The translations under genes were made by a program, and so were the position numbers. From the NCBI GenBank assembly GCA_001628485.1, contig LURR01000012.1, positions 146,563 to 210,562 on the forward strand: a stretch of DNA of 64,000 nt, given 5' to 3'. Source of the DNA: Marine group II euryarchaeote REDSEA-S11_B3N4. Lineage in GTDB: Archaea; Thermoplasmatota; Poseidoniia; Poseidoniales; Thalassarchaeaceae. The notes under the pieces were generated by a model, which was not told the origin of the DNA, made no database searches, and saw only the letters and a list, made by a program, of their open reading frames with translations. Below, piece after piece: positions 34,221 to 40,299 of the stretch (the stretch's first letter is position 1; each line of letters starts with the position of its first letter).

Positions 34221-35120
34221 GTGATGTCTTCGAGCCCCTCGCATGATCCTGTGAGCGGCTTCTCAGAATCTTCTGCCCCATTGAGGGTGGATTTGGCGGG
34301 AGGATGGACCGATGTTCCACCCTATCCTACAGATTTTGGAGGGGAGGTAGTAAATTTCGCAATAAATCACAGAGTTAGTGTAAAGAAACGTGAGGAAGCG
34401 AAAGATTCTGATTTAGAATTCGACTTCCCAGTTCCTCGTGGTTCTGGCCTGGGAACCAGTTCAGCGATGAACGTTGCACTGGCAGCGCTAAATTCGTCCA
34501 GCCAATTAGAGAACCTCGATGAAATAGCCGAACAGGCATTCCTTTCAGAGTCAAAAGAGAATCGCTGTGGAAGGCAAGATCATTGGGCCTCTGCATTTGG
34601 TGGTTTCAATCACCTTCTGTTTATTGGAGACTCGGTAGAGAGAATGCCCTTCGAGCCTATGAAGTCCTCATTGAATTGGCTGAAGAAGCATCTGGTGATT
34701 GCTTACTCGGGAAGGAGCAGGAATTCAGGGGAAATCCAGGAATCGGTATGGTCCAGTTTCTCAAATGGGGGCGAGGGAGTAATCCAAGGTTTACACAAGA
34801 TAAGGAGTTCCGCGAGAGAAATGGCAAACGGTTTGCAACAGGATAGGAGAGATTTGGTAGTTTCTTCATTGAGGGGAGTCTGCGAGGGAGTCGATATGAT
34901 CGACCCCACTATACACGATCCGTTTCGTGGTGTAATCATGCCTCTGATTGAGTCAGGATCGATTGTGGCTTGGAAGGCGCTAGGGGCCGGTGGAGGGGGG
35001 TGCTCAGCTTTGCTTTGCTCACCTTCTGGCAAGGAATATGCCACTCAGCGCATCGAGGACGAGGGTTGGCAAATTCTGGATTGGGACTTCGATAATCAAG
35101 GGGTACAGCTTACTCGATGA
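34221..35120 (+). CDS. GHMP-family kinase of undetermined substrate
   Basis: APLRVDLAGGWTDVPPY N-terminal motif and GHMP phosphate-binding loop PRGSGLGTSSAMNVALAAL. Not mevalonate or shikimate kinase; both are present elsewhere in the window. Confidence 0.55.
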   Translation: MMSSSPSHDPVSGFSESSAPLRVDLAGGWTDVPPYPTDFGGEVVNFAINHRVSVKKREEAKDSDLEFDFPVPRGSGLGTSSAMNVALAALNSSSQLENLDEIAEQAFLSESKENRCGRQDHWASAFGGFNHLLFIGDSVERMPFEPMKSSLNWLKKHLVIAYSGRSRNSGEIQESVWSSFSNGGEGVIQGLHKIRSSAREMANGLQQDRRDLVVSSLRGVCEGVDMIDPTIHDPFRGVIMPLIESGSIVAWKALGAGGGGCSALLCSPSGKEYATQRIEDEGWQILDWDFDNQGVQLTR

Positions 35121-35166: not shown

Positions 35167-38100
35167 ATGGCCGGACGCCGCTCGATGTTTTTGCCCCTGG
35201 CTCTATTGGTCCTAATTGCTCCCATGGCGTCTTCCTCTATCTGGGTGGAAGAAGTACCTAATGGCGGTTATGATGCCGAAGGAAAGTGGGCCCCATCAGT
35301 GGAGTCAGAGATACATTGGAAATGGTGGACACATTGGAGCAGAGACAAGGATTACAACTCCATTGACGACAGACTGGAATGGCTAATTGAGCAACCGGAG
35401 GAAGTCAAGAGGGATTGGTGGAGGCGAGCTCCGGAAGGACATGCCAGGATCTTCGTAGACTACGACCACCACCCAACTGATGCCGATATCTCTGCCTTGG
35501 AGTCACTAGGGGTCGAAGTTACTTTCAGGTTCGGATACCTAAATACTGTCTCAGCCACCTCGCCTGTATCTTCAATATTGGATGAAAATGGGATTAGATC
35601 ACTCAGTGGGGTTGTGATGATTGAGGACCTCGGACTAGCTGAGACAAATATGAACGAGGCCGTGCCAAATATGGCGGTTGACAATGTCTGGAATGACTTC
35701 GGACTAGACGGAACAGGCTCGGTAATTGCGGTTCTCGATACTGGAGTTCGTGGCGACCACGAGGGTCTAAACGACATGGACGACGATCCCTTCACCTGTA
35801 TCGACGACCCTCCGGACCCAGATCCACTGGATCCAGAGCCACAACCAATCCCTTCCGACTGCGATCCGAAGATTATCGCTTTCTTTGATGCCGTTTTCAC
35901 CGATGATGAACAAGATCCCTCCACGTCATACGATTCGGGCACCCATGGCACTCATGTCGCAGGAATTGCTGCCGGCTCGGGAGGGGGGCAGACAGACCCT
36001 GGAACCGGTGAGAGATATGTCGGTGCCGCGCCTGGAGCCTACCTGATAAACATCCTAGGGTGTTGCGATGGCGACATCGAGGATGTGATGCAAGGTGCCC
36101 AGTGGGCCATAGACAATAGGGACAAGTATGGAATCGACATAGTCACCTCTTCTTTGGGGGAACAGCAGTTCGAGGTTCACATCGACAATGACGGGAGCTC
36201 CGCTTGGAGCCGTCAGATGGACATGGTCGTTGAGGCCGGAATCATAACCACCCTCTCTGCGGGTAACGAGTTCGGTGGAGCGACCCTTGCTGGGTGCAAC
36301 ACAATCGACAGCCCGGGTGACGCTGAGCTACCTGTCACAGTGGCTAGCCTGGACAAGGACCTTGGTCTGGCGATTTACAGCAGTCGTGGGTACACCTCGG
36401 ACCTCCGAGTCAAGCCGGATGTCGCTGCTATTGGCTCAAACATAATGGCCCCTGACGCAGCGACTCAGGATGGGTACACGAGCAAGTCGGGCACTAGTAT
36501 GGCCACACCGCTTATGGCCGGAATCGCAGCACTGATGGTGCAAGCGAACCCCGATTTAACGCCGACAGAGTTCAAGGACATAATCTCCGCTCACTCCATT
36601 GAGAGAGATATCCAACTCTTGAACGATCCCGGATTCAACGACTGCAGCCTCCTGGAAACCCGTCCCGACAACGAGTTCGGTTTTGGTCAGGCAGACCCAA
36701 CTGCCTTTGTAGAGGCCGCTGGGAGTATAGACAGATCCCTGAACGTCTCAATGGGAGTCTCCACCCTGCAAGAAATAGGGAATGGTAGCTATGTCACAGG
36801 TACCTCCAGTGGAGCAGCCCCGGGCACTGGCTTGGTAGAGGTTAAGGTAGGCGGAGGCCTTTGGTCGGGAGCTGCCGATTTATCCAAGGACGGGGACTGG
36901 TCATCTTGGAGCATAAAACTAGATCCGCATGAAAAATCTGGGAACTCGACAATTTATGCGAGGTTGGTAGTTTCCGATGACAGCATTTCCCCAGTGGATG
37001 CAAGAAGGGTAATTCTGGTAGATGCCCAATTTTCCGGCTCATCGTCTTCCTCGGGATTGACCAACCTAGGCCCAATCGCCTTCTTCGTACCCTTCCTGCT
37101 AGCAATAGCCCTGGTTCTGTTCGTCGGTAGAAGGGAAGAATGGCTCCAAACCCCGATCTCCCAAAGCGACCAAACTAGCGAAGACGAGATTTCGCACGCA
37201 GAGCCAGAGGATGCATTGTCTTGGTCAGAAAGGATGTGGGAAAACGTGACCGAGCTAGGCAAGGGAGGGGCGATAACCGAGAACCCAATCAAGAGAGTAC
37301 TAACCCTTTGCCTTCTCTACTTCGCCCAAGGCCTCCCGTCGGGTTTCGCAAGCGTGACATTTGCGGCATATCTCGTAGCAAACGGGGTTTCAGTGCCCGA
37401 GATAGCGATTCTGTTCGCAACTGTCTCCCTCCCATGGACCTTCAAGTGGATATGGGGGCCTCTGGTTGACTCGGTTTACATCGAGAAGTATGGTCCTCGA
37501 AGGCAATGGATAGTGTTCGCTCAAACCGGAATGGCACTGACCCTTGGCTCCTTGCTTCTGGTTCCGGACTTGAACGGGCAGATCGATTTAGTTGCTAGAA
37601 TCCTATTCCTCCACAACATATTCTCGTCGTTGCAGGACGTGGCAACCGATGCTCTCGCAGTGGAGGTTCTCGAGCCCGATGAGGTAGCCAGGGTAAACGG
37701 GCTTATGTTCGCCGCAAAGAGGGTCGGAATCATCTTCGGTGGGGCGGTCCTGGGGGTGTTAATCACCAAGATAGGGATATCCGGAGTAATCGCAGCGCAA
37801 TTAGTGATGCTCGCATTCATCATAACGGTGCCACTTTTCATGGTCGAGAAGCCAGGCGTTCAACTGTTCCCATGGTCAAGAACTTCGGTTGACACCGACT
37901 CGCAGGATTCAAGGACCGAATCCGGTGCATTGGTCGCAGAGCCGGTGGAGGACTCAGAAGAGGCCCCATGGGAGGAAGAGGAAGAGTTCAGAGTAGCAAG
38001 AATAGTCGGCTACAGTATTGCCAACAAGCGAGTATCAGTCGCCTCCTTCCTAGCGGTTTCGGGAGCCTGTATCTGGCTGTTCGGCTTCGTGATGGACGTC

Positions 38101-39093
38101 TTTACGGTAGACTGGGCCTTCGGCAAGAACGTCAGAATAGGGTTCCCGGCACTAGAGGCAAAACAAACCTTCGGATTTGACCTCAGGCCGTGGTCTGGGA
38201 CGAATAGGATTAGCCTGGCGCTGATTCTTCTATCAGTAATTTCGTGGGGGAGGTCAAGATTCATTTCACCACAATCCGGGGAATCTATGCCAAACCCGAT
38301 ATTACTTATCTTGGCTCCAATCGGCGCCCTATCCAATAGTCTGCCTGGAGGAGGTCGTTTCGATCCAGAGTCTGTCAGTAATACAATAGCAAGAACATCC
38401 TTCTATCTGACTAAGGCCTTCTCAGTCAGATCTGCCTTCCTGCTGGTTATAGCGGGTCTACTCGGTGAGCTGTATTACTTCACCAGCCCGATTTACGTTG
38501 ACATCTTCATCAATGAGGCTGGCTGGTCACAACAGAAGTACAATGGGATAGTCGGCGGCATCGCCTTGTTAGGGTCAGTTTCGGGGCAGATAATCGGTGG
38601 AGTCCTCGGAGACAAGTTCGGAATACGCAGAGTAGCGATGGTCTCGTTCTTGGTGCTGGCACTGGCGAATGCCACCTTTGCGTTCCTAGAGCCCATGTGG
38701 GGGAACACCTTGGTTATGACAATATATTTGATAGGCCAGTACTTCATTGCTGGAATCGCATTGATTTGCATTATTTCTCTGTGCATGAGGCTAACATGGA
38801 GCAAAGTAGGGGGAACCCAGTTCACAGCATACATGTCCATCCTGAATACCTCGGTCGTTTTCGCATACACGCTGACAGAGAGGATGATATCCGTCTTCAA
38901 CTACACATCTGCAATCTACATAGGCGCTGCTCTGACCCTCGTCACAACCTTCTTCCTACTTTTCATAGACGAGAATGAAACTGATCGCGTGCTCGAAGGT
39001 AGATGGGACGGTGCCGATGAATTCGATGACCTAGGGGAATCTCCCTGGTGGGATGCTGAAGAGGGGGGCGAGCAGCCTGTTGCGAGTGCATGA
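35167..39093 (+). CDS. Fusion protein: secreted subtilisin-like (S8) serine protease domain + TM linker + C-terminal AmpG/PAT-like MFS permease domain
   Basis: Signal peptide MFLPLALLVLIAPMASS. S8 triad VAVLDTGVRGDHEG / DSGTHGTHVAGIAAG / GTSMATPLMAG. TM at ~aa 630. The AmpG-like region is GLPSGF...WKWIWGPLVDSVYIEKYGPRRQWIVFAQ...LQDVATDALAVEVLEPDEVARVNG, followed by ~12 TM in total. Confidence 0.7.
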   Translation: MAGRRSMFLPLALLVLIAPMASSSIWVEEVPNGGYDAEGKWAPSVESEIHWKWWTHWSRDKDYNSIDDRLEWLIEQPEEVKRDWWRRAPEGHARIFVDYDHHPTDADISALESLGVEVTFRFGYLNTVSATSPVSSILDENGIRSLSGVVMIEDLGLAETNMNEAVPNMAVDNVWNDFGLDGTGSVIAVLDTGVRGDHEGLNDMDDDPFTCIDDPPDPDPLDPEPQPIPSDCDPKIIAFFDAVFTDDEQDPSTSYDSGTHGTHVAGIAAGSGGGQTDPGTGERYVGAAPGAYLINILGCCDGDIEDVMQGAQWAIDNRDKYGIDIVTSSLGEQQFEVHIDNDGSSAWSRQMDMVVEAGIITTLSAGNEFGGATLAGCNTIDSPGDAELPVTVASLDKDLGLAIYSSRGYTSDLRVKPDVAAIGSNIMAPDAATQDGYTSKSGTSMATPLMAGIAALMVQANPDLTPTEFKDIISAHSIERDIQLLNDPGFNDCSLLETRPDNEFGFGQADPTAFVEAAGSIDRSLNVSMGVSTLQEIGNGSYVTGTSSGAAPGTGLVEVKVGGGLWSGAADLSKDGDWSSWSIKLDPHEKSGNSTIYARLVVSDDSISPVDARRVILVDAQFSGSSSSSGLTNLGPIAFFVPFLLAIALVLFVGRREEWLQTPISQSDQTSEDEISHAEPEDALSWSERMWENVTELGKGGAITENPIKRVLTLCLLYFAQGLPSGFASVTFAAYLVANGVSVPEIAILFATVSLPWTFKWIWGPLVDSVYIEKYGPRRQWIVFAQTGMALTLGSLLLVPDLNGQIDLVARILFLHNIFSSLQDVATDALAVEVLEPDEVARVNGLMFAAKRVGIIFGGAVLGVLITKIGISGVIAAQLVMLAFIITVPLFMVEKPGVQLFPWSRTSVDTDSQDSRTESGALVAEPVEDSEEAPWEEEEEFRVARIVGYSIANKRVSVASFLAVSGACIWLFGFVMDVFTVDWAFGKNVRIGFPALEAKQTFGFDLRPWSGTNRISLALILLSVISWGRSRFISPQSGESMPNPILLILAPIGALSNSLPGGGRFDPESVSNTIARTSFYLTKAFSVRSAFLLVIAGLLGELYYFTSPIYVDIFINEAGWSQQKYNGIVGGIALLGSVSGQIIGGVLGDKFGIRRVAMVSFLVLALANATFAFLEPMWGNTLVMTIYLIGQYFIAGIALICIISLCMRLTWSKVGGTQFTAYMSILNTSVVFAYTLTERMISVFNYTSAIYIGAALTLVTTFFLLFIDENETDRVLEGRWDGADEFDDLGESPWWDAEEGGEQPVASA

Positions 39094-39343
39094 AATTCTG
39101 GAAGGTACGGATGAAGACTTCCTGGTCTTCACACAGACAATATGCCCATACTGCACTCGTGCTTTCAGAACCCTAGATTCCAAGGGGCTAACTTACTCCG
39201 AAGTGAATCTGGATAACTTCGAAGGCCTTCGAAAGGAAGTTGTGATGGAGACCGGTCACAGGACGGTCCCTGTGGTTTTCGATATGCGAGGAGACGCCCC
39301 CGTATTCGTAGGGGGTTCAGACAACCTTCTGGAATACCTCTAG
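39053..39343 (+). CDS. Glutaredoxin-like protein
   Basis: CPYC redox motif in VFTQTICPYCTRAFRTL...TVPVVF. Real start may be the GTG at 39086, which overlaps the upstream stop codon. Confidence 0.7.
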   Translation: MLKRGASSLLRVHEILEGTDEDFLVFTQTICPYCTRAFRTLDSKGLTYSEVNLDNFEGLRKEVVMETGHRTVPVVFDMRGDAPVFVGGSDNLLEYL

Positions 39344-40299
39344 AGTGTCCAGGACTGCGTGATTCCACCGGCAATTCTGACCCTCAGGAACGTCGATCCG
39401 CCCGTGAAGGTCGCAGTTAGGGTGTATTCGCCAGAAGGATAGGGTATGGTGCCCAGGGTACCCATCTCACTAGCTCCCGGACCCCAAATCCTCTCAAGTA
39501 CAGAGATTGACATATGGTCCCTCAGTGTAAAGGAAATGGATGAACCGGAACCACATTCTGCGTCCATGAAGTAGATCATCTCATCCCATTCCCCATCACT
39601 AGGATGGTCGCTGACGAGGAAAGTGTCCCTAAACTCAATGTCATTGCCCGGGTCTTCCCATGTTTCGCTGAAGAGGTCCCCCCCTCTAACGAAGTAGACG
39701 TCTCCAGTGTGCCCAGAACCCGAGTCCGACAACATCATCCTAAGGTTCGAGGTTCCCGAAGCATCCTTCCATGTGAATGACTGGAAGAATCCAATTTCGC
39801 TGTCGAAAACGTAATCCAGCCTAGAACCATCATCAGAGTTGGCGATTACTACTGCAGTACTGCCTGCTACATCGGAAACGAAAGCACTCCACTCCATTGA
39901 GAATAGGGTGAATGACCATGAGTCCCCCTGTTCCATTGGGAAACTGAGCACTTGCTGGGGAGCTCCGTTTTCGAAAGCACCTAGATCGGAGTGGGTAATC
40001 CTGCCAAGGAAAGGGTTGTGATTCAGTACGGCATGCCTCCTTGCTTCAGTCAAGCTAGAAATCGCTAACATGTATGCAGTCCCGTCTTCTTCGCTGGTAC
40101 TCGCTACAACTAGCCTTGCAGTATCGTCGCTGTAGTCCGGGGTTGAGAATGTGTACAGCCACCAGTCTCCCGTCTCCCATGTAGGCACCTCTATCTCGTT
40201 GGATCCATTGCTGCCTACTCCTGATGAACCTCCGGTGCATCCGGCGAGAGAGAACGAAAGAATCACCACGGTCATTGCCAACGCGCGATACGGGCCCAT
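39340..40299 (-). CDS. Secreted lipoprotein of unknown function
   Basis: Lipoprotein-like N-terminus (hydrophobic signal helix then Cys: MTVVILSFSLAGCTGGSS). Beta-rich, Ser/Thr/Asp-rich 319-aa protein. Confidence 0.5.
   Translation of the reverse strand: MGPYRALAMTVVILSFSLAGCTGGSSGVGSNGSNEIEVPTWETGDWWLYTFSTPDYSDDTARLVVASTSEEDGTAYMLAISSLTEARRHAVLNHNPFLGRITHSDLGAFENGAPQQVLSFPMEQGDSWSFTLFSMEWSAFVSDVAGSTAVVIANSDDGSRLDYVFDSEIGFFQSFTWKDASGTSNLRMMLSDSGSGHTGDVYFVRGGDLFSETWEDPGNDIEFRDTFLVSDHPSDGEWDEMIYFMDAECGSGSSISFTLRDHMSISVLERIWGPGASEMGTLGTIPYPSGEYTLTATFTGGSTFLRVRIAGGITQSWTL

What the first reader, a model, noticed from the sequence alone, without database searches (positions are those of the whole stretch)
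35167..39093. Single 1308-aa ORF fusing a secreted S8 subtilase to an AmpG/PAT-like MFS permease
Domain order and embedded glutaredoxin:
- The N-terminal 600 aa is a signal-peptide-bearing subtilisin (Asp/His/Ser triad motifs in canonical order).
- A single TM helix and a ~50-aa linker follow.
- A complete ~12-TM MFS domain is the closest match to the AmpG muropeptide / acetyl-CoA (PAT) transporter family (WKWIWGPLVDS...GPRRQWI...LQDVATDALAVEVLEPDE).
- A CPYC glutaredoxin gene starts inside or overlapping the stop codon, so the three functions appear translationally coupled.

An extracellular protease physically tethered to an importer would couple substrate cleavage to uptake of the products, for example peptides or glycopeptide fragments. 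I do not recognise this architecture as described.
Basis: partly seen in the sequence, partly recalled or inferred. Interest (0 to 1): 0.75.

Follow-up and report, generated by a model that had tools for sequence, protein, structure and literature searches.

The report
Surface protease fused to membrane importer
A very common group of uncultured ocean archaea makes one long protein that joins an outward-facing protein-cutting enzyme to a membrane transporter; this probably lets the cell cut up dissolved protein and take in the pieces before they drift away.

Summary
ORF 35167-39093 (+), 1308 aa, reads: signal peptide, pro-region, S8 subtilase (Asp191/His260/Asn367/Ser444 invariant in 50 homologues), beta-sandwich, one anchor helix (TM0), acidic cytoplasmic linker, PAT/AmpG-family MFS permease (12 TM plus 2 inserted TM). 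A CPYC glutaredoxin gene overlaps the stop codon.

It is not a read-through artefact. The full-length fusion occurs in more than 120 protein clusters and about 64 species-level genomes of Marine Group II archaea (Poseidoniales), and in Marine Group III.

New findings:
- At the same syntenic locus, other lineages carry an M28 aminopeptidase-MFS gene or an unknown ~230-aa ectodomain-MFS gene. The ectodomain is exchangeable on a constant MFS.
- N-lobe PAT residues (AmpG K62, D125, D129, R153) are conserved. AmpG's C-lobe substrate and proton residues (D238, E326, R365) are not. It belongs to the family but is not an AmpG orthologue.
- The glutaredoxin follows in 73/73 MGII loci, is convergent at the M28 locus and absent in MGIII. 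It is linked to the MFS, not the protease.

Best explanation, inferred and not shown: a tethered peptidase that passes its products to its own proton-coupled importer. I found no paper describing the fusion. I class it as a new variant of a known kind; interest about 0.7.

The parts
35167..39093 (+). Whole gene: 1308-aa S8 subtilase - TM anchor - PAT-family MFS fusion protein (stop TGA at 39091-39093)
   Evidence: ORF list; Pfam and NCBIfam hits; full-length homologues in more than 120 clusters and in species-representative Poseidoniales genomes
35167..35241 (+). N-terminal signal peptide (aa 1-25, MAGRRSMFLPLALLVLIAPMASSSI). The n-region Arg-Arg is conserved in S8-type homologues.
   Evidence: Hydropathy peak at aa 7-25; consensus MxGRRxALAS...PLASS in 50 homologues. 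Sec versus Tat export was not resolved.
35242..35709 (+). Pro-region (aa 26-181), probable intramolecular-chaperone/inhibitor propeptide
   Evidence: No Pfam hit. AF2 gives beta-alpha-beta-beta at about aa 92-133, pLDDT 64-77. 45% identical to the MGIII fusion's pro-region. The nearest solved relative, Tk-SP, aligns weakly from aa 142.
35710..36687 (+). S8 subtilase catalytic domain (aa 182-507): Asp191 (35737-35739), His260 (35944-35946), oxyanion Asn367 (36265-36267), Ser444 (36496-36498)
   Evidence: Pfam PF00082, E 6e-44 over the whole profile. All four residues invariant in 50 sequences. Best solved relative is the Thermococcus kodakarensis subtilisin-like protease 3afg, E 3.6e-39. 76-98% identical across MGII, the most conserved part of the protein.
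36742..37017 (+). Post-catalytic beta-sandwich domain (aa 526-617)
   Evidence: Seven predicted strands, pLDDT about 70-80. No Pfam hit. 61-97% identical across MGII and 29% to MGIII.
37018..37134 (+). Short Ser-rich tether (aa 618-636) and anchor helix TM0 (aa 637-656, ending in Arg-Arg on the cytoplasmic side)
   Evidence: Strongest hydropathy peak in the protein; helix with pLDDT about 91 in the model. The juxtamembrane/TM0 segment is homologous between the M28-, X- and cupredoxin-type relatives.
37135..37284 (+). Acidic, mostly disordered cytoplasmic linker (aa 657-706) with one amphipathic helix (aa 686-698)
   Evidence: pLDDT below 50 for aa 665-682; 13 Asp/Glu against 2 Lys/Arg; poorly conserved
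37285..37839 (+). MFS N-lobe, TM1-6 (aa 707-891), with PAT-family signature residues Lys760, Asp824, Asp828, Arg852 and motif A (GPLVDSVYIEKYGPRR)
   Evidence: Pfam MFS_1/Acatn/BT1; AmpG-family TIGR00901, E 1.5e-33; residue mapping to AmpG K62/D125/D129/R153
37840..38364 (+). Inter-lobe insertion (aa 892-1066): disordered acidic loop plus two extra TM helices (aa 958-980 and 1008-1032)
   Evidence: AF2 model. Variable: by protein length and sequence it appears absent in the M28-type and in the X-type P0274, and present in the X-type L074. Poorly conserved.
38365..38958 (+). MFS C-lobe, TM7-12 (aa 1067-1264). Glu1101 in TM7. AmpG D238, E326 and R365 correspond to Tyr1104, Gln1191 and Val1230.
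   Evidence: Family profile aligns to AmpG over both lobes, E 1.3e-44; residue mapping; model pLDDT 85-95
38959..39090 (+). Acidic, disordered cytoplasmic C-terminal tail (aa 1265-1308)
   Evidence: pLDDT below 50 from aa 1280; 15 Asp/Glu against 2 Lys/Arg
39053..39343 (+). CPYC glutaredoxin gene in the +1 frame, overlapping the stop codon of the fusion gene (alternative GTG start at 39086)
   Evidence: Pfam Glutaredoxin, E 4.9e-14. Present directly downstream in 73/73 MGII loci with a visible 3' end. On the opposite strand at the M28-type locus. Absent at MGIII loci.

Best explanation
The gene encodes a single-polypeptide 'digest-and-import' device of planktonic Poseidoniia archaea.

Proposed mechanism:
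1. After export, and (inferred) autocatalytic removal of the pro-region, an active Tk-SP-like subtilase with its beta-sandwich domain is held about 19 residues above the membrane by helix TM0.
2. TM0 crosses to the cytoplasm, so the following PAT/AmpG-family MFS keeps its normal N-in topology.
3. The protease cuts dissolved or particle-bound protein at the cell surface.
4. The resulting peptides, or modified peptides, are released next to the outward-facing mouth of the permease.
5. They are taken up by proton symport before they diffuse away.
6. In most MGII lineages a translationally coupled glutaredoxin is made alongside in the cytoplasm. It may reduce disulfide-containing cargo; this step is weakly supported.

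The same MFS chassis occurs with other ectodomains (M28 aminopeptidase, an unknown Cys-containing domain, cupredoxin). The general principle would be an exchangeable extracellular module feeding or serving one transporter.

Shown: architecture, conservation, intact catalytic residues, family membership, alternative ectodomains at the same locus.
Inferred: protease activity, direction of transport, nature of the substrate, and the coupling itself.
For: - Real and ancient fusion: more than 120 clusters at 60-95% identity, about 64 S8-type loci among 80 species-representative genomes, and an MGIII version with 58% S8 and about 43% MFS identity.
- Protease under strong constraint: the triad and oxyanion Asn are invariant. 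The S8 domain is 79-90% identical between lineages whose MFS is only 54-71% identical.
- A second, unrelated peptidase on the same transporter: M28-MFS in about 57 clusters. It sits in the same synteny block, with H+-PPase 87% and the 319-aa neighbour 59% identical to the window's. The His/Asp zinc-ligand motifs align to Aeromonas aminopeptidase. A further M28 fusion to a divergent PAT-like MFS exists.
- Pocket residues vary with ectodomain type: the Arg153 equivalent and a TM7 acidic residue are present in the S8-type and its X-type derivatives, and absent in the M28- and cupredoxin-types.
- Topology is consistent: signal peptide, one extra TM, and homology over both lobes to solved AmpG.
- The PAT family already carries peptide-containing cargo toward the cytosol: muropeptides (PMC12214514) and GSSG (PMC12889552).
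- An AmpG homologue that physically recruits the hydrolase producing its substrate is published (PMC13507758).
- S08A and M28 are the dominant, highly transcribed 'extracellular peptidases' of MG-II/III (PMC4660358, PMC6864105).
- Other hydrolase fusions occur in the wider clade (glycoside hydrolase P0229, 3-keto-disaccharide-hydrolase-like P0152).
Against: - No experiment or structure shows coupling. The 1200-aa AF2 model was too poor (pLDDT 58; S8 region 20-40) to show any ectodomain-MFS contact.
- Thirteen of 80 species loci carry a protease-less orthologue with an unknown ectodomain at the same position, and its MFS is closer to the window's (70-77%) than most S8-type MFS are. The MFS therefore works without the protease.
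- A cupredoxin-type relative is not a hydrolase.
- No PAT-family member is known to carry plain oligopeptides.
- AmpG's proton-relay residues D238 and E326 are not conserved, so even proton coupling is uncertain.
- TM0 alone would be enough to anchor the protease, so the fusion could reflect co-expression or anchoring rather than substrate channelling.
Confidence: 0.5

Rival explanations
1. Anchoring only. The MFS is an independent housekeeping transporter that happens to serve as a membrane anchor and co-expression partner for various surface modules. There is no functional hand-over of protease products.
For: - Very different ectodomains (S8, M28, unknown X-domain, cupredoxin) sit on the same MFS clade.
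- Protease-less orthologues occupy the same locus.
- The S8 and MFS parts have discordant similarity groupings, as expected for freely exchangeable modules.
Against: - TM0 alone would anchor the enzyme, yet the 15-TM fusion is kept from MGII to MGIII.
- Two of the ectodomain types, including the most widespread one, are peptidases.
- Pocket residues change with ectodomain type.
- The tether between the ectodomain and TM0 is short, about 19 aa.
Confidence: 0.25
2. Scavenging of bacterial cell-wall fragments. The MFS is a true AmpG-like importer of muropeptides or glycopeptides from seawater, and the peptidase trims the peptide stems.
For: - AmpG is the best solved sequence and Foldseek match.
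- The AmpG sugar-contacting N-lobe residues K62, D125 and R153 are conserved. R153 is conserved specifically in the S8- and X-type fusions and not in stand-alone relatives.
Against: - AmpG residues needed for muropeptide binding and proton relay (D238, E326, R365) and Y152 are replaced.
- K62, D125 and D129 are also conserved in SLC33A1, so they are family signatures and not sugar-specific.
- TIGR00901 scores 116 bits against a 350-bit cut-off.
- No peptidoglycan-recycling genes lie in the neighbourhood.
- Subtilases are not known to cleave D-amino-acid stem peptides (general knowledge).
Confidence: 0.08
3. Thiol/disulfide cargo. The MFS imports disulfide-linked peptides (GSSG-like or cystine-containing protease products), and the coupled glutaredoxin reduces them in the cytoplasm.
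For: - A Grx lies directly downstream in 73/73 MGII loci, usually overlapping the stop codon, including protease-less loci.
- The PAT-family member SLC33A1 transports GSSG from lumen to cytosol (PMC12889552; PDB 9mun among the fold matches).
Against: - The Grx is on the opposite strand at the M28-type locus and absent from MGIII S8-MFS loci.
- The whole block (rib genes to H+-PPase) is syntenic across the order, so adjacency may be inherited gene order.
- SLC33A1 Tyr225 and Asn229 correspond to Ile and Gly here (my reading of the alignment).
Confidence: 0.1
4. Sequencing or assembly read-through artificially joining two adjacent genes.
For: None found. One species genome (L065) has the S8 part split over two frames.
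Against: - The same uninterrupted frame occurs in more than 120 clusters, in SAGs and in MAGs from many projects, down to 57% identity.
- The junction (beta-sandwich, tether, TM0, linker) is itself conserved.
- The junction DNA is unremarkable.
Confidence: 0.01

Closest known systems
AmpG anhydromuropeptide permease (E. coli / Yokenella regensburgei; PAT family, TC 2.A.1.25; PDB 8zgz, 9j9z, 9c3f)
   Same: - The family profile aligns over both lobes (E 1.3e-44), and AmpG is the top Foldseek hit.
- K62, D125, D129 and R153 equivalents are conserved.
- Motif A is present.
- Some AmpGs also carry two extra helices (PMC12214514).
   Different: - D238, E326, R365 and Y152 are replaced.
- The two extra helices lie between the lobes.
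- It has an N-terminal 640-aa ectodomain plus TM0.
- The host is an archaeon without murein, and there is no peptidoglycan-recycling context.
- It scores below the curated TIGR00901 cut-off.
Acinetobacter baumannii AmpG1 with its periplasmic domain that binds the lytic transglycosylase Slt (PMC13507758)
   Same: Both are PAT-family permeases carrying an extracytoplasmic domain, and in AmpG1 that domain is reported to couple substrate-generating hydrolysis to import.
   Different: - In AmpG1 the hydrolase is a separate protein recruited non-covalently, and the substrate is muropeptide.
- Here the hydrolase is part of the same polypeptide and is a protease.
SLC33A1 / AT-1 (acetyl-CoA and GSSG transporter of the ER; PDB 9m0s, 9mun)
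   Same: - It moves a disulfide-linked peptide toward the cytosol (PMC12889552), which recalls the Grx linkage here.
   Different: - Only the N-lobe aligns by sequence.
- The GSSG-contacting Tyr225 and Asn229 are not conserved.
- SLC33A1 has no ectodomain.
Tk-SP, subtilisin-like serine protease of Thermococcus kodakarensis (PDB 3afg)
   Same: - It is the best solved relative of the S8 part (E 3.6e-39).
- It shares the layout propeptide - subtilase - C-terminal beta domain (the Tk-SP layout is from my own knowledge).
   Different: - Tk-SP is a soluble secreted enzyme.
- Here the beta domain continues into TM0 and a 14-TM permease.
Peptidase-containing ABC transporters (PCATs; C39 peptidase fused to a bacteriocin exporter) - from my own knowledge
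   Same: Both join a peptidase and a membrane transporter covalently, so that cleavage and transport of the same molecule are coupled.
   Different: - In PCATs the peptidase is cytoplasmic, the transporter is an ATP-driven exporter and the cargo is a dedicated precursor.
- Here the peptidase is extracellular, the transporter is a secondary carrier and the inferred direction is import.

Membership tests
Subtilase family S8 (Pfam PF00082) | Profile match above the curated threshold | tested here: met
   150.9 bits against a 21.8-bit cut-off, covering profile positions 1-288 of 288
Subtilase family S8 (Pfam PF00082) | Catalytic Asp-His-Ser in that order, plus the oxyanion-hole Asn | tested here: met
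   Asp191 (VLDTG), His260 (HGTHVAG), Asn367 (SAGNE) and Ser444 (GTSMATP) are all invariant in 50 homologues
Subtilase family S8 (Pfam PF00082) | N-terminal propeptide (I9-type) removed autocatalytically | tested here: inconclusive
   A 155-aa conserved pro-region has a predicted beta-alpha-beta-beta unit but no Pfam hit. Processing is not testable here.
Subtilase family S8 (Pfam PF00082) | Proteolytic activity | not testable with these tools
   Needs expression and an enzyme assay
Major facilitator superfamily | Two six-helix bundles, the canonical MFS fold | tested here: met
   [not shown]
Major facilitator superfamily | Motif A (G-x-x-x-D-x-x-G-R-R) in the TM2-TM3 loop | tested here: met
   GPLVDSVYIEKYGPRR at aa 764-778. 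G, D, G and RR are invariant across the family and align with AmpG SPVMDRYTPPFLGRRR.
PAT family (TC 2.A.1.25; AmpG / SLC33A1) | Sequence-profile homology to family members | tested here: met
   Family profile against AmpG chains, E 1.3e-44 over both lobes; against SLC33A1, E about 1e-19 over the N-lobe. Pfam Acatn, E 3.7e-13.
PAT family (TC 2.A.1.25; AmpG / SLC33A1) | Signature Lys in TM2 (F-K-x-x-W-x-P) and Q-D-x-x-x-D in TM4 | tested here: met
   Lys760, Asp824 and Asp828 are invariant in 19 fused and 29 stand-alone relatives
AmpG muropeptide permease (orthologue in the strict sense) | Score above the curated NCBIfam cut-offs (TIGR00901, PRK11010, PRK11902) | tested here: not met
   116 bits against 350; 44.6 against 756; 62.4 against 656
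AmpG muropeptide permease (orthologue in the strict sense) | Substrate-binding residues K62, D125, Y152, R153 and R365 (PMC12214514) | tested here: not met
   K62, D125 and R153 are conserved, but Y152 is Lys and R365 is Val/Gly/Ala
AmpG muropeptide permease (orthologue in the strict sense) | Proton-relay acidic residues D238 and E326 | tested here: not met
   D238 corresponds to Tyr1104 (an acidic Glu1101 lies one helical turn earlier). E326 corresponds to Gln/Arg/Lys.
AmpG muropeptide permease (orthologue in the strict sense) | Peptidoglycan-recycling genomic or physiological context | tested here: not met
   Neighbours are riboflavin genes, a sugar-kinase-like GHMP kinase, Grx, a lipoprotein-like protein and H+-PPase. 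Whole genomes were not searched.
Glutaredoxin (neighbouring gene) | Thioredoxin-fold profile match and a CxxC active site | tested here: met
   Pfam PF00462, 52.7 bits against 22.9; CPYC motif present. Below the equivalog cut-offs for Grx3 and NrdH.

The most novel reading that the evidence does not exclude
Poseidoniia archaea use a modular family of single-chain 'ectoenzyme-permease' machines. One PAT-type MFS chassis at a fixed genomic locus exchanges its extracellular head (S8 endopeptidase, M28 aminopeptidase, an unknown Cys-containing domain, cupredoxin). The head generates or captures the substrate that the chassis imports, with pocket residues co-adapting to the head. In MGII a translationally coupled glutaredoxin processes the cargo. 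This would be a previously unrecognised strategy for using dissolved protein in the ocean, built on a transporter family not known to carry peptides.
Probability: 0.35. Interest if true: 0.85.

Novelty: new variant of a known kind. Interest (0 to 1): 0.7.

Why it matters
Marine Group II archaea are among the most abundant heterotrophs of the surface ocean and have never been cultured. How they gain access to high-molecular-weight dissolved protein is an open question.

Published surveys count their S8 and M28 genes as free 'extracellular peptidases' (PMC4660358, PMC6864105). This analysis shows that a core, order-wide S8 gene, and a widespread M28 gene, are membrane-tethered and covalently joined to a transporter. 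That changes how those counts should be read: the enzyme is cell-bound and its products are kept by the cell, rather than released as public goods.

It also gives a concrete test. A single gene could be expressed heterologously to ask what MGII import.

Finally, it extends the PAT/AmpG family to archaea that lack murein. It provides a covalent counterpart to the recently described AmpG1-Slt hydrolase-permease coupling.

Tried and rejected
- AF2 model of aa 70-1269: pLDDT 58, with the S8 region at 20-40, probably because the alignment is shallow and nearly invariant there. It is unusable for ectodomain-MFS geometry.
- Positive-inside rule on model helices: not discriminating (Lys/Arg 7.0% inside against 5.6% outside), because the inside loops are long and acidic. 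Topology is argued from homology and the odd TM count instead.
- Pfam on the pro-region, the beta-sandwich and the X-domain: no hits. The database search with the X-domain returned only fragments of the same family.
- My first reading of L088 as carrying a 'decayed' Grx was wrong. tblastn and frame inspection show an intact CPYC Grx without a canonical start codon.
- A +1 frameshift fusion of Grx to the MFS tail was considered and judged unlikely. No slippery motif lies at the stop (ACA-TGA, GCA-TGA, TCA-TGA), and the Grx is convergent at the M28 locus.
- Neighbourhoods of stand-alone relatives: one lies near proline racemase, DAO and beta-lactamase-fold amidohydrolase genes, a weak hint of amino-acid or peptide catabolism. 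The other is uninformative.
- The bacterial promoter/terminator scan, Rfam and the tRNA scan gave nothing useful.
- Literature searches found no paper describing the fusion. The library excludes most subscription journals.

Full report
**1. The observation**

The window contains one uninterrupted ORF on the + strand, 35167-39093, ATG start, 1308 codons.

Domain hits:
- Pfam places a complete Peptidase_S8 domain at aa 182-507 (E 6e-44).
- MFS_1, Acatn (acetyl-CoA transporter) and BT1 hits start at aa 713-721.
- NCBIfam's best model for the C-terminal half is the AmpG-family TIGR00901 (E 1.5e-33). At 116 bits it is far below the 350-bit curated cut-off.

A 96-codon CPYC glutaredoxin ORF (39053-39343, Pfam E 4.9e-14) overlaps the stop codon. 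It lies in the +1 frame relative to the large gene.

**2. Artefact or real gene**

The full-length protein has more than 120 cluster-level homologues of 1223-1330 aa at 60-95% identity. All of them carry PF00082 + PF07690 + PF13000, and they come from ENA, JGI, NCBI, Tara and Logan assemblies.

A scan of one genome per GTDB species returned 109 loci, of which 80 were kept. Their titles are Poseidoniales, Marine Group II, Thalassarchaeaceae, or unspecific 'Euryarchaeota/Methanobacteriota/Thermoplasmatota archaeon' MAGs and SAGs. The window is 94-95% identical to SAGs AG-343-E09 and AG-422-I18 and to MAG REDSEA-S42_B7.

In about 64 of these loci the S8 and MFS parts lie in one stop-free frame. 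The junction DNA is unremarkable. A read-through artefact is excluded.

**3. Anatomy**

- Catalytic residues: alignment of 50 homologues shows Asp191, His260, Asn367 (oxyanion hole) and Ser444 invariant.
- Closest solved protease: the Thermococcus kodakarensis subtilisin-like protease 3afg (E 3.6e-39).
- Pro-region: a conserved 155-aa region without a Pfam match lies upstream of the catalytic domain.
- Beta-sandwich: a seven-strand domain at aa 526-617 lies downstream of the catalytic domain.
- Tether and anchor: a 19-residue Ser-rich tether leads to TM0 (aa 637-656), the most hydrophobic segment of the protein. TM0 ends in Arg-Arg.

The AF2 model of aa 625-1308 (pLDDT 75.8, pTM 0.75) shows, in order:
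- TM0
- a disordered acidic linker
- TM1-6
- a disordered acidic loop
- two additional TM helices (aa 958-980 and 1008-1032)
- TM7-12
- a disordered acidic tail

The permease therefore has 14 TM, not 12, and the protein has 15 TM in all.

Topology was inferred, not measured:
- Solved PAT-family transporters have cytoplasmic N-termini.
- Motif A (GPLVD...GPRR) marks the cytoplasmic TM2-3 loop.
- The single extra helix TM0 therefore puts everything N-terminal of it outside, which agrees with the signal peptide.
- Charge counting did not help.

**4. Which transporter family**

I mapped the residues shown experimentally to matter in AmpG (PMC12214514) onto the alignment:

| AmpG residue | Window residue | Conservation in relatives |
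|---|---|---|
| K62 | Lys760 | invariant in all relatives |
| D125 | Asp824 | invariant in all relatives |
| D129 | Asp828 | invariant in all relatives |
| R153 | Arg852 | invariant in S8-type and syntenic X-type fusions; Tyr in stand-alone relatives; Leu in M28-type; Met in cupredoxin-type |
| Y152 | Lys851 | replaced |
| D238 | Tyr1104 | replaced, but a conserved Glu1101 lies one helical turn earlier; the MGIII fusion has Glu in the D238 column |
| E326 | Gln1191 | Gln/Arg/Lys |
| R365 | Val1230 | Gly/Ala/Val |

The protein is a PAT-family member. It fails the residue tests for an AmpG orthologue, so its substrate cannot be read off from AmpG.

**5. Relatives: the main new result**

An exhaustive HMMER search with the MFS half alone found the fused cluster, then several other N-terminally extended proteins. 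After those came hundreds of 420-470-aa stand-alone MFS proteins at about 35% identity.

The extended relatives are:
- A second S8-MFS of 1156-1176 aa, labelled Marine Group III / Poseidoniia: S8 58%, pro-region 45%, MFS about 43% identical to the window.
- A Peptidase_M28-MFS of about 870 aa.
- Proteins of 715-885 aa whose ectodomain is an about 230-aa Cys-containing domain without a Pfam match (the 'X-domain').
- A cupredoxin-MFS of 660 aa.
- C-terminal fusions to a 3-keto-disaccharide-hydrolase-like domain, to FG-GAP repeats, and to an MGH1-like glycoside hydrolase with a galactose-binding domain.

The M28-MFS family:
- It is itself large: about 57 clusters at 55-100% identity.
- Its His-x-Asp and Asp-Asp zinc-ligand motifs align to Aeromonas leucyl aminopeptidase. 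By eye, the Glu-Glu, Asp and His motifs are also present.
- A further set of about 885-aa M28 proteins from Thalassarchaeaceae has a C-terminal half that is a divergent PAT-like MFS (hhalign probability 97.6%, E 2.7e-12). Its Q-D...D motif has degenerated.

**6. One locus, several heads**

In the window the gene order is ribB, ribL-like, GHMP kinase, S8-MFS, Grx, a 319-aa lipoprotein-like protein, H+-PPase. Other loci compare as follows:

| Locus | Gene type | Neighbourhood |
|---|---|---|
| L001 | S8-type, 61% identical | same block |
| L074 | X-type, 884 aa | same block |
| L088 | X-type, 770 aa | same block |
| L084 | M28-type | same downstream block: Grx, alpha/beta hydrolase, 320-aa protein, H+-PPase, GATase, NifU |

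For L084, the H+-PPase is 87% and the 320-aa protein 59% identical to the window's. These genes are therefore positional orthologues carrying different heads.

Thirteen of the 80 species loci (L069, L071-L082) are X-type. The MGIII S8-MFS, a second X-type (L089) and the cupredoxin-type (L090) lie in unrelated contexts.

The S8 domain is much more conserved than the MFS: 79-90% against 54-71% between lineage clusters. The two parts also group the lineages differently:
- The window's MFS clusters with the L020 group (S8 only 77% identical) and with the protease-less X-type.
- The window's S8 clusters with lineages whose MFS is 56-63% identical.

This points to exchange of modules or whole genes at the locus, or to strong rate shifts. 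I did not separate these possibilities.

**7. The glutaredoxin**

- A Grx follows within 400 nt in 73 of 73 MGII loci whose 3' end is visible. Its frame overlaps the stop codon in most of them. This includes the protease-less loci.
- At the M28 locus the Grx is adjacent but convergent.
- At MGIII loci the Grx is absent.
- The Grx is therefore linked to the MFS and to the locus, not to the protease, and the coupling is not universal.
- SLC33A1, another PAT member, has recently been shown to move GSSG toward the cytosol (PMC12889552). That makes a thiol/disulfide cargo worth testing, but SLC33A1 Tyr225 and Asn229 are not conserved here (alignment).

**8. How it most likely works**

The best-supported reading, confidence about 0.5, is a tethered endopeptidase that delivers its products to its own importer. 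This makes sense for a free-living cell in dilute seawater, where products of a released enzyme are mostly lost.

Support:
- The fusion has persisted from MGII to MGIII.
- The protease is under extreme constraint.
- An unrelated aminopeptidase has independently been placed on the same chassis at the same locus.
- Pocket residues differ according to head type.
- The tether is short.
- Published results cover this transporter family. Its members carry peptide-containing cargo inward (PMC12214514, PMC12889552), and one member recruits the hydrolase that makes its substrate (PMC13507758).

Against:
- Protease-less and cupredoxin heads exist.
- There is no precedent for plain peptide transport in the family.
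- AmpG's proton-relay residues are not conserved.
- There is no structural or experimental evidence for hand-over.

Rivals, with my confidence in each:
- anchoring or co-expression only: 0.25
- thiol/disulfide cargo with Grx: 0.10
- muropeptide scavenging: 0.08
- artefact: 0.01

**9. Novelty**

Databases already hold these sequences. JGI names some 'subtilisin family serine protease/MFS family permease' or 'PAT family ... AmpG'.

The MGII literature I could read treats S8 and M28 as extracellular peptidases and does not mention a transporter fusion (PMC4660358, PMC6864105). Seven searches found no paper on the architecture; the library lacks most subscription journals.

Both parts belong to known families, and enzyme-transporter coupling is a known principle. 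Examples are AmpG1-Slt and, from my own knowledge, peptidase-containing ABC exporters. I therefore rate this a new variant of a known kind.

The surprising elements are the following:
- an extracellular protease is covalently joined to a secondary carrier;
- the head is exchangeable at a fixed locus;
- the gene is a core gene of one of the ocean's most abundant archaeal groups.

Noticed in passing
L088:7293-7560 and L010:8830-8950 (compare window 39053-39343): In two loci the glutaredoxin frame is intact (CPYC present) and overlaps the MFS stop, but it has no ATG, GTG or TTG between the upstream in-frame stop and the active site. Elsewhere the candidate start is not positionally conserved. This suggests near-cognate initiation or termination-reinitiation; a frameshift fusion seems unlikely.
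   Followed up: partly
window 39340-40299 (-): This 319-aa protein has a lipobox-like N-terminus (SLAGCTGG) and no Pfam or NCBIfam hit. It is conserved (59-68% identity) next to the Grx/MFS gene in S8-, X- and M28-type loci, always between it and the H+-PPase. It could be a surface partner of the system, or simply syntenic.
   Followed up: partly
L074:4383-5150; P0121, P0274, P0126, P0302 N-termini: An uncharacterised ~230-aa Cys-containing extracellular domain (motifs MYFWGDE, ECWNHFD, GYGEIEFPEG, FRMYYS) replaces the protease in some orthologues. In a database search it was found only in this protein family.
   Followed up: partly
L065:4782-8887: In MAG UBA8684 (Thalassarchaeaceae) the S8 part is split over two overlapping frames. 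This is either an assembly frameshift or a pseudogenised protease domain.
   Followed up: no
L046 (NZWI01000049.1): A typical S8-MFS locus (S8 90% identical to the window) sits in a MAG labelled Candidatus Neomarinimicrobiota bacterium NAT51. The contig is probably mis-binned.
   Followed up: no
L020 and L021 (TMED192, two contigs): The same MAG carries two near-identical copies of the S8-MFS gene on different contigs. This is either a real duplication or redundant assembly.
   Followed up: no
P0423-P0438 (about 885 aa, Thalassarchaeaceae): These M28 peptidases are fused to a very divergent PAT-like MFS in which the family's Q-D...D motif has degenerated. Pfam sees only the M28 domain, so they are annotated as plain 'M28 family peptidase'.
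   Followed up: partly
window 35167-35241: The signal peptide's n-region Arg-Arg (MAGRRSMF; consensus MxGRR) is conserved in S8-type proteins but absent from the M28- and X-type heads. This recalls the Tat-dependent export of haloarchaeal subtilases. Sec versus Tat export was not resolved.
   Followed up: no
window 1-64000: The whole 64-kb window has no Rfam family hit at gathering thresholds and no tRNA gene.
   Followed up: no
window 34221-35120 (+): The conserved upstream GHMP-family kinase resembles sugar-1-kinases (heptose-7-phosphate kinase HddA, fucokinase) only weakly. Its function is unclear. It is co-directional with the fusion gene and ends 46 nt before it.
   Followed up: partly
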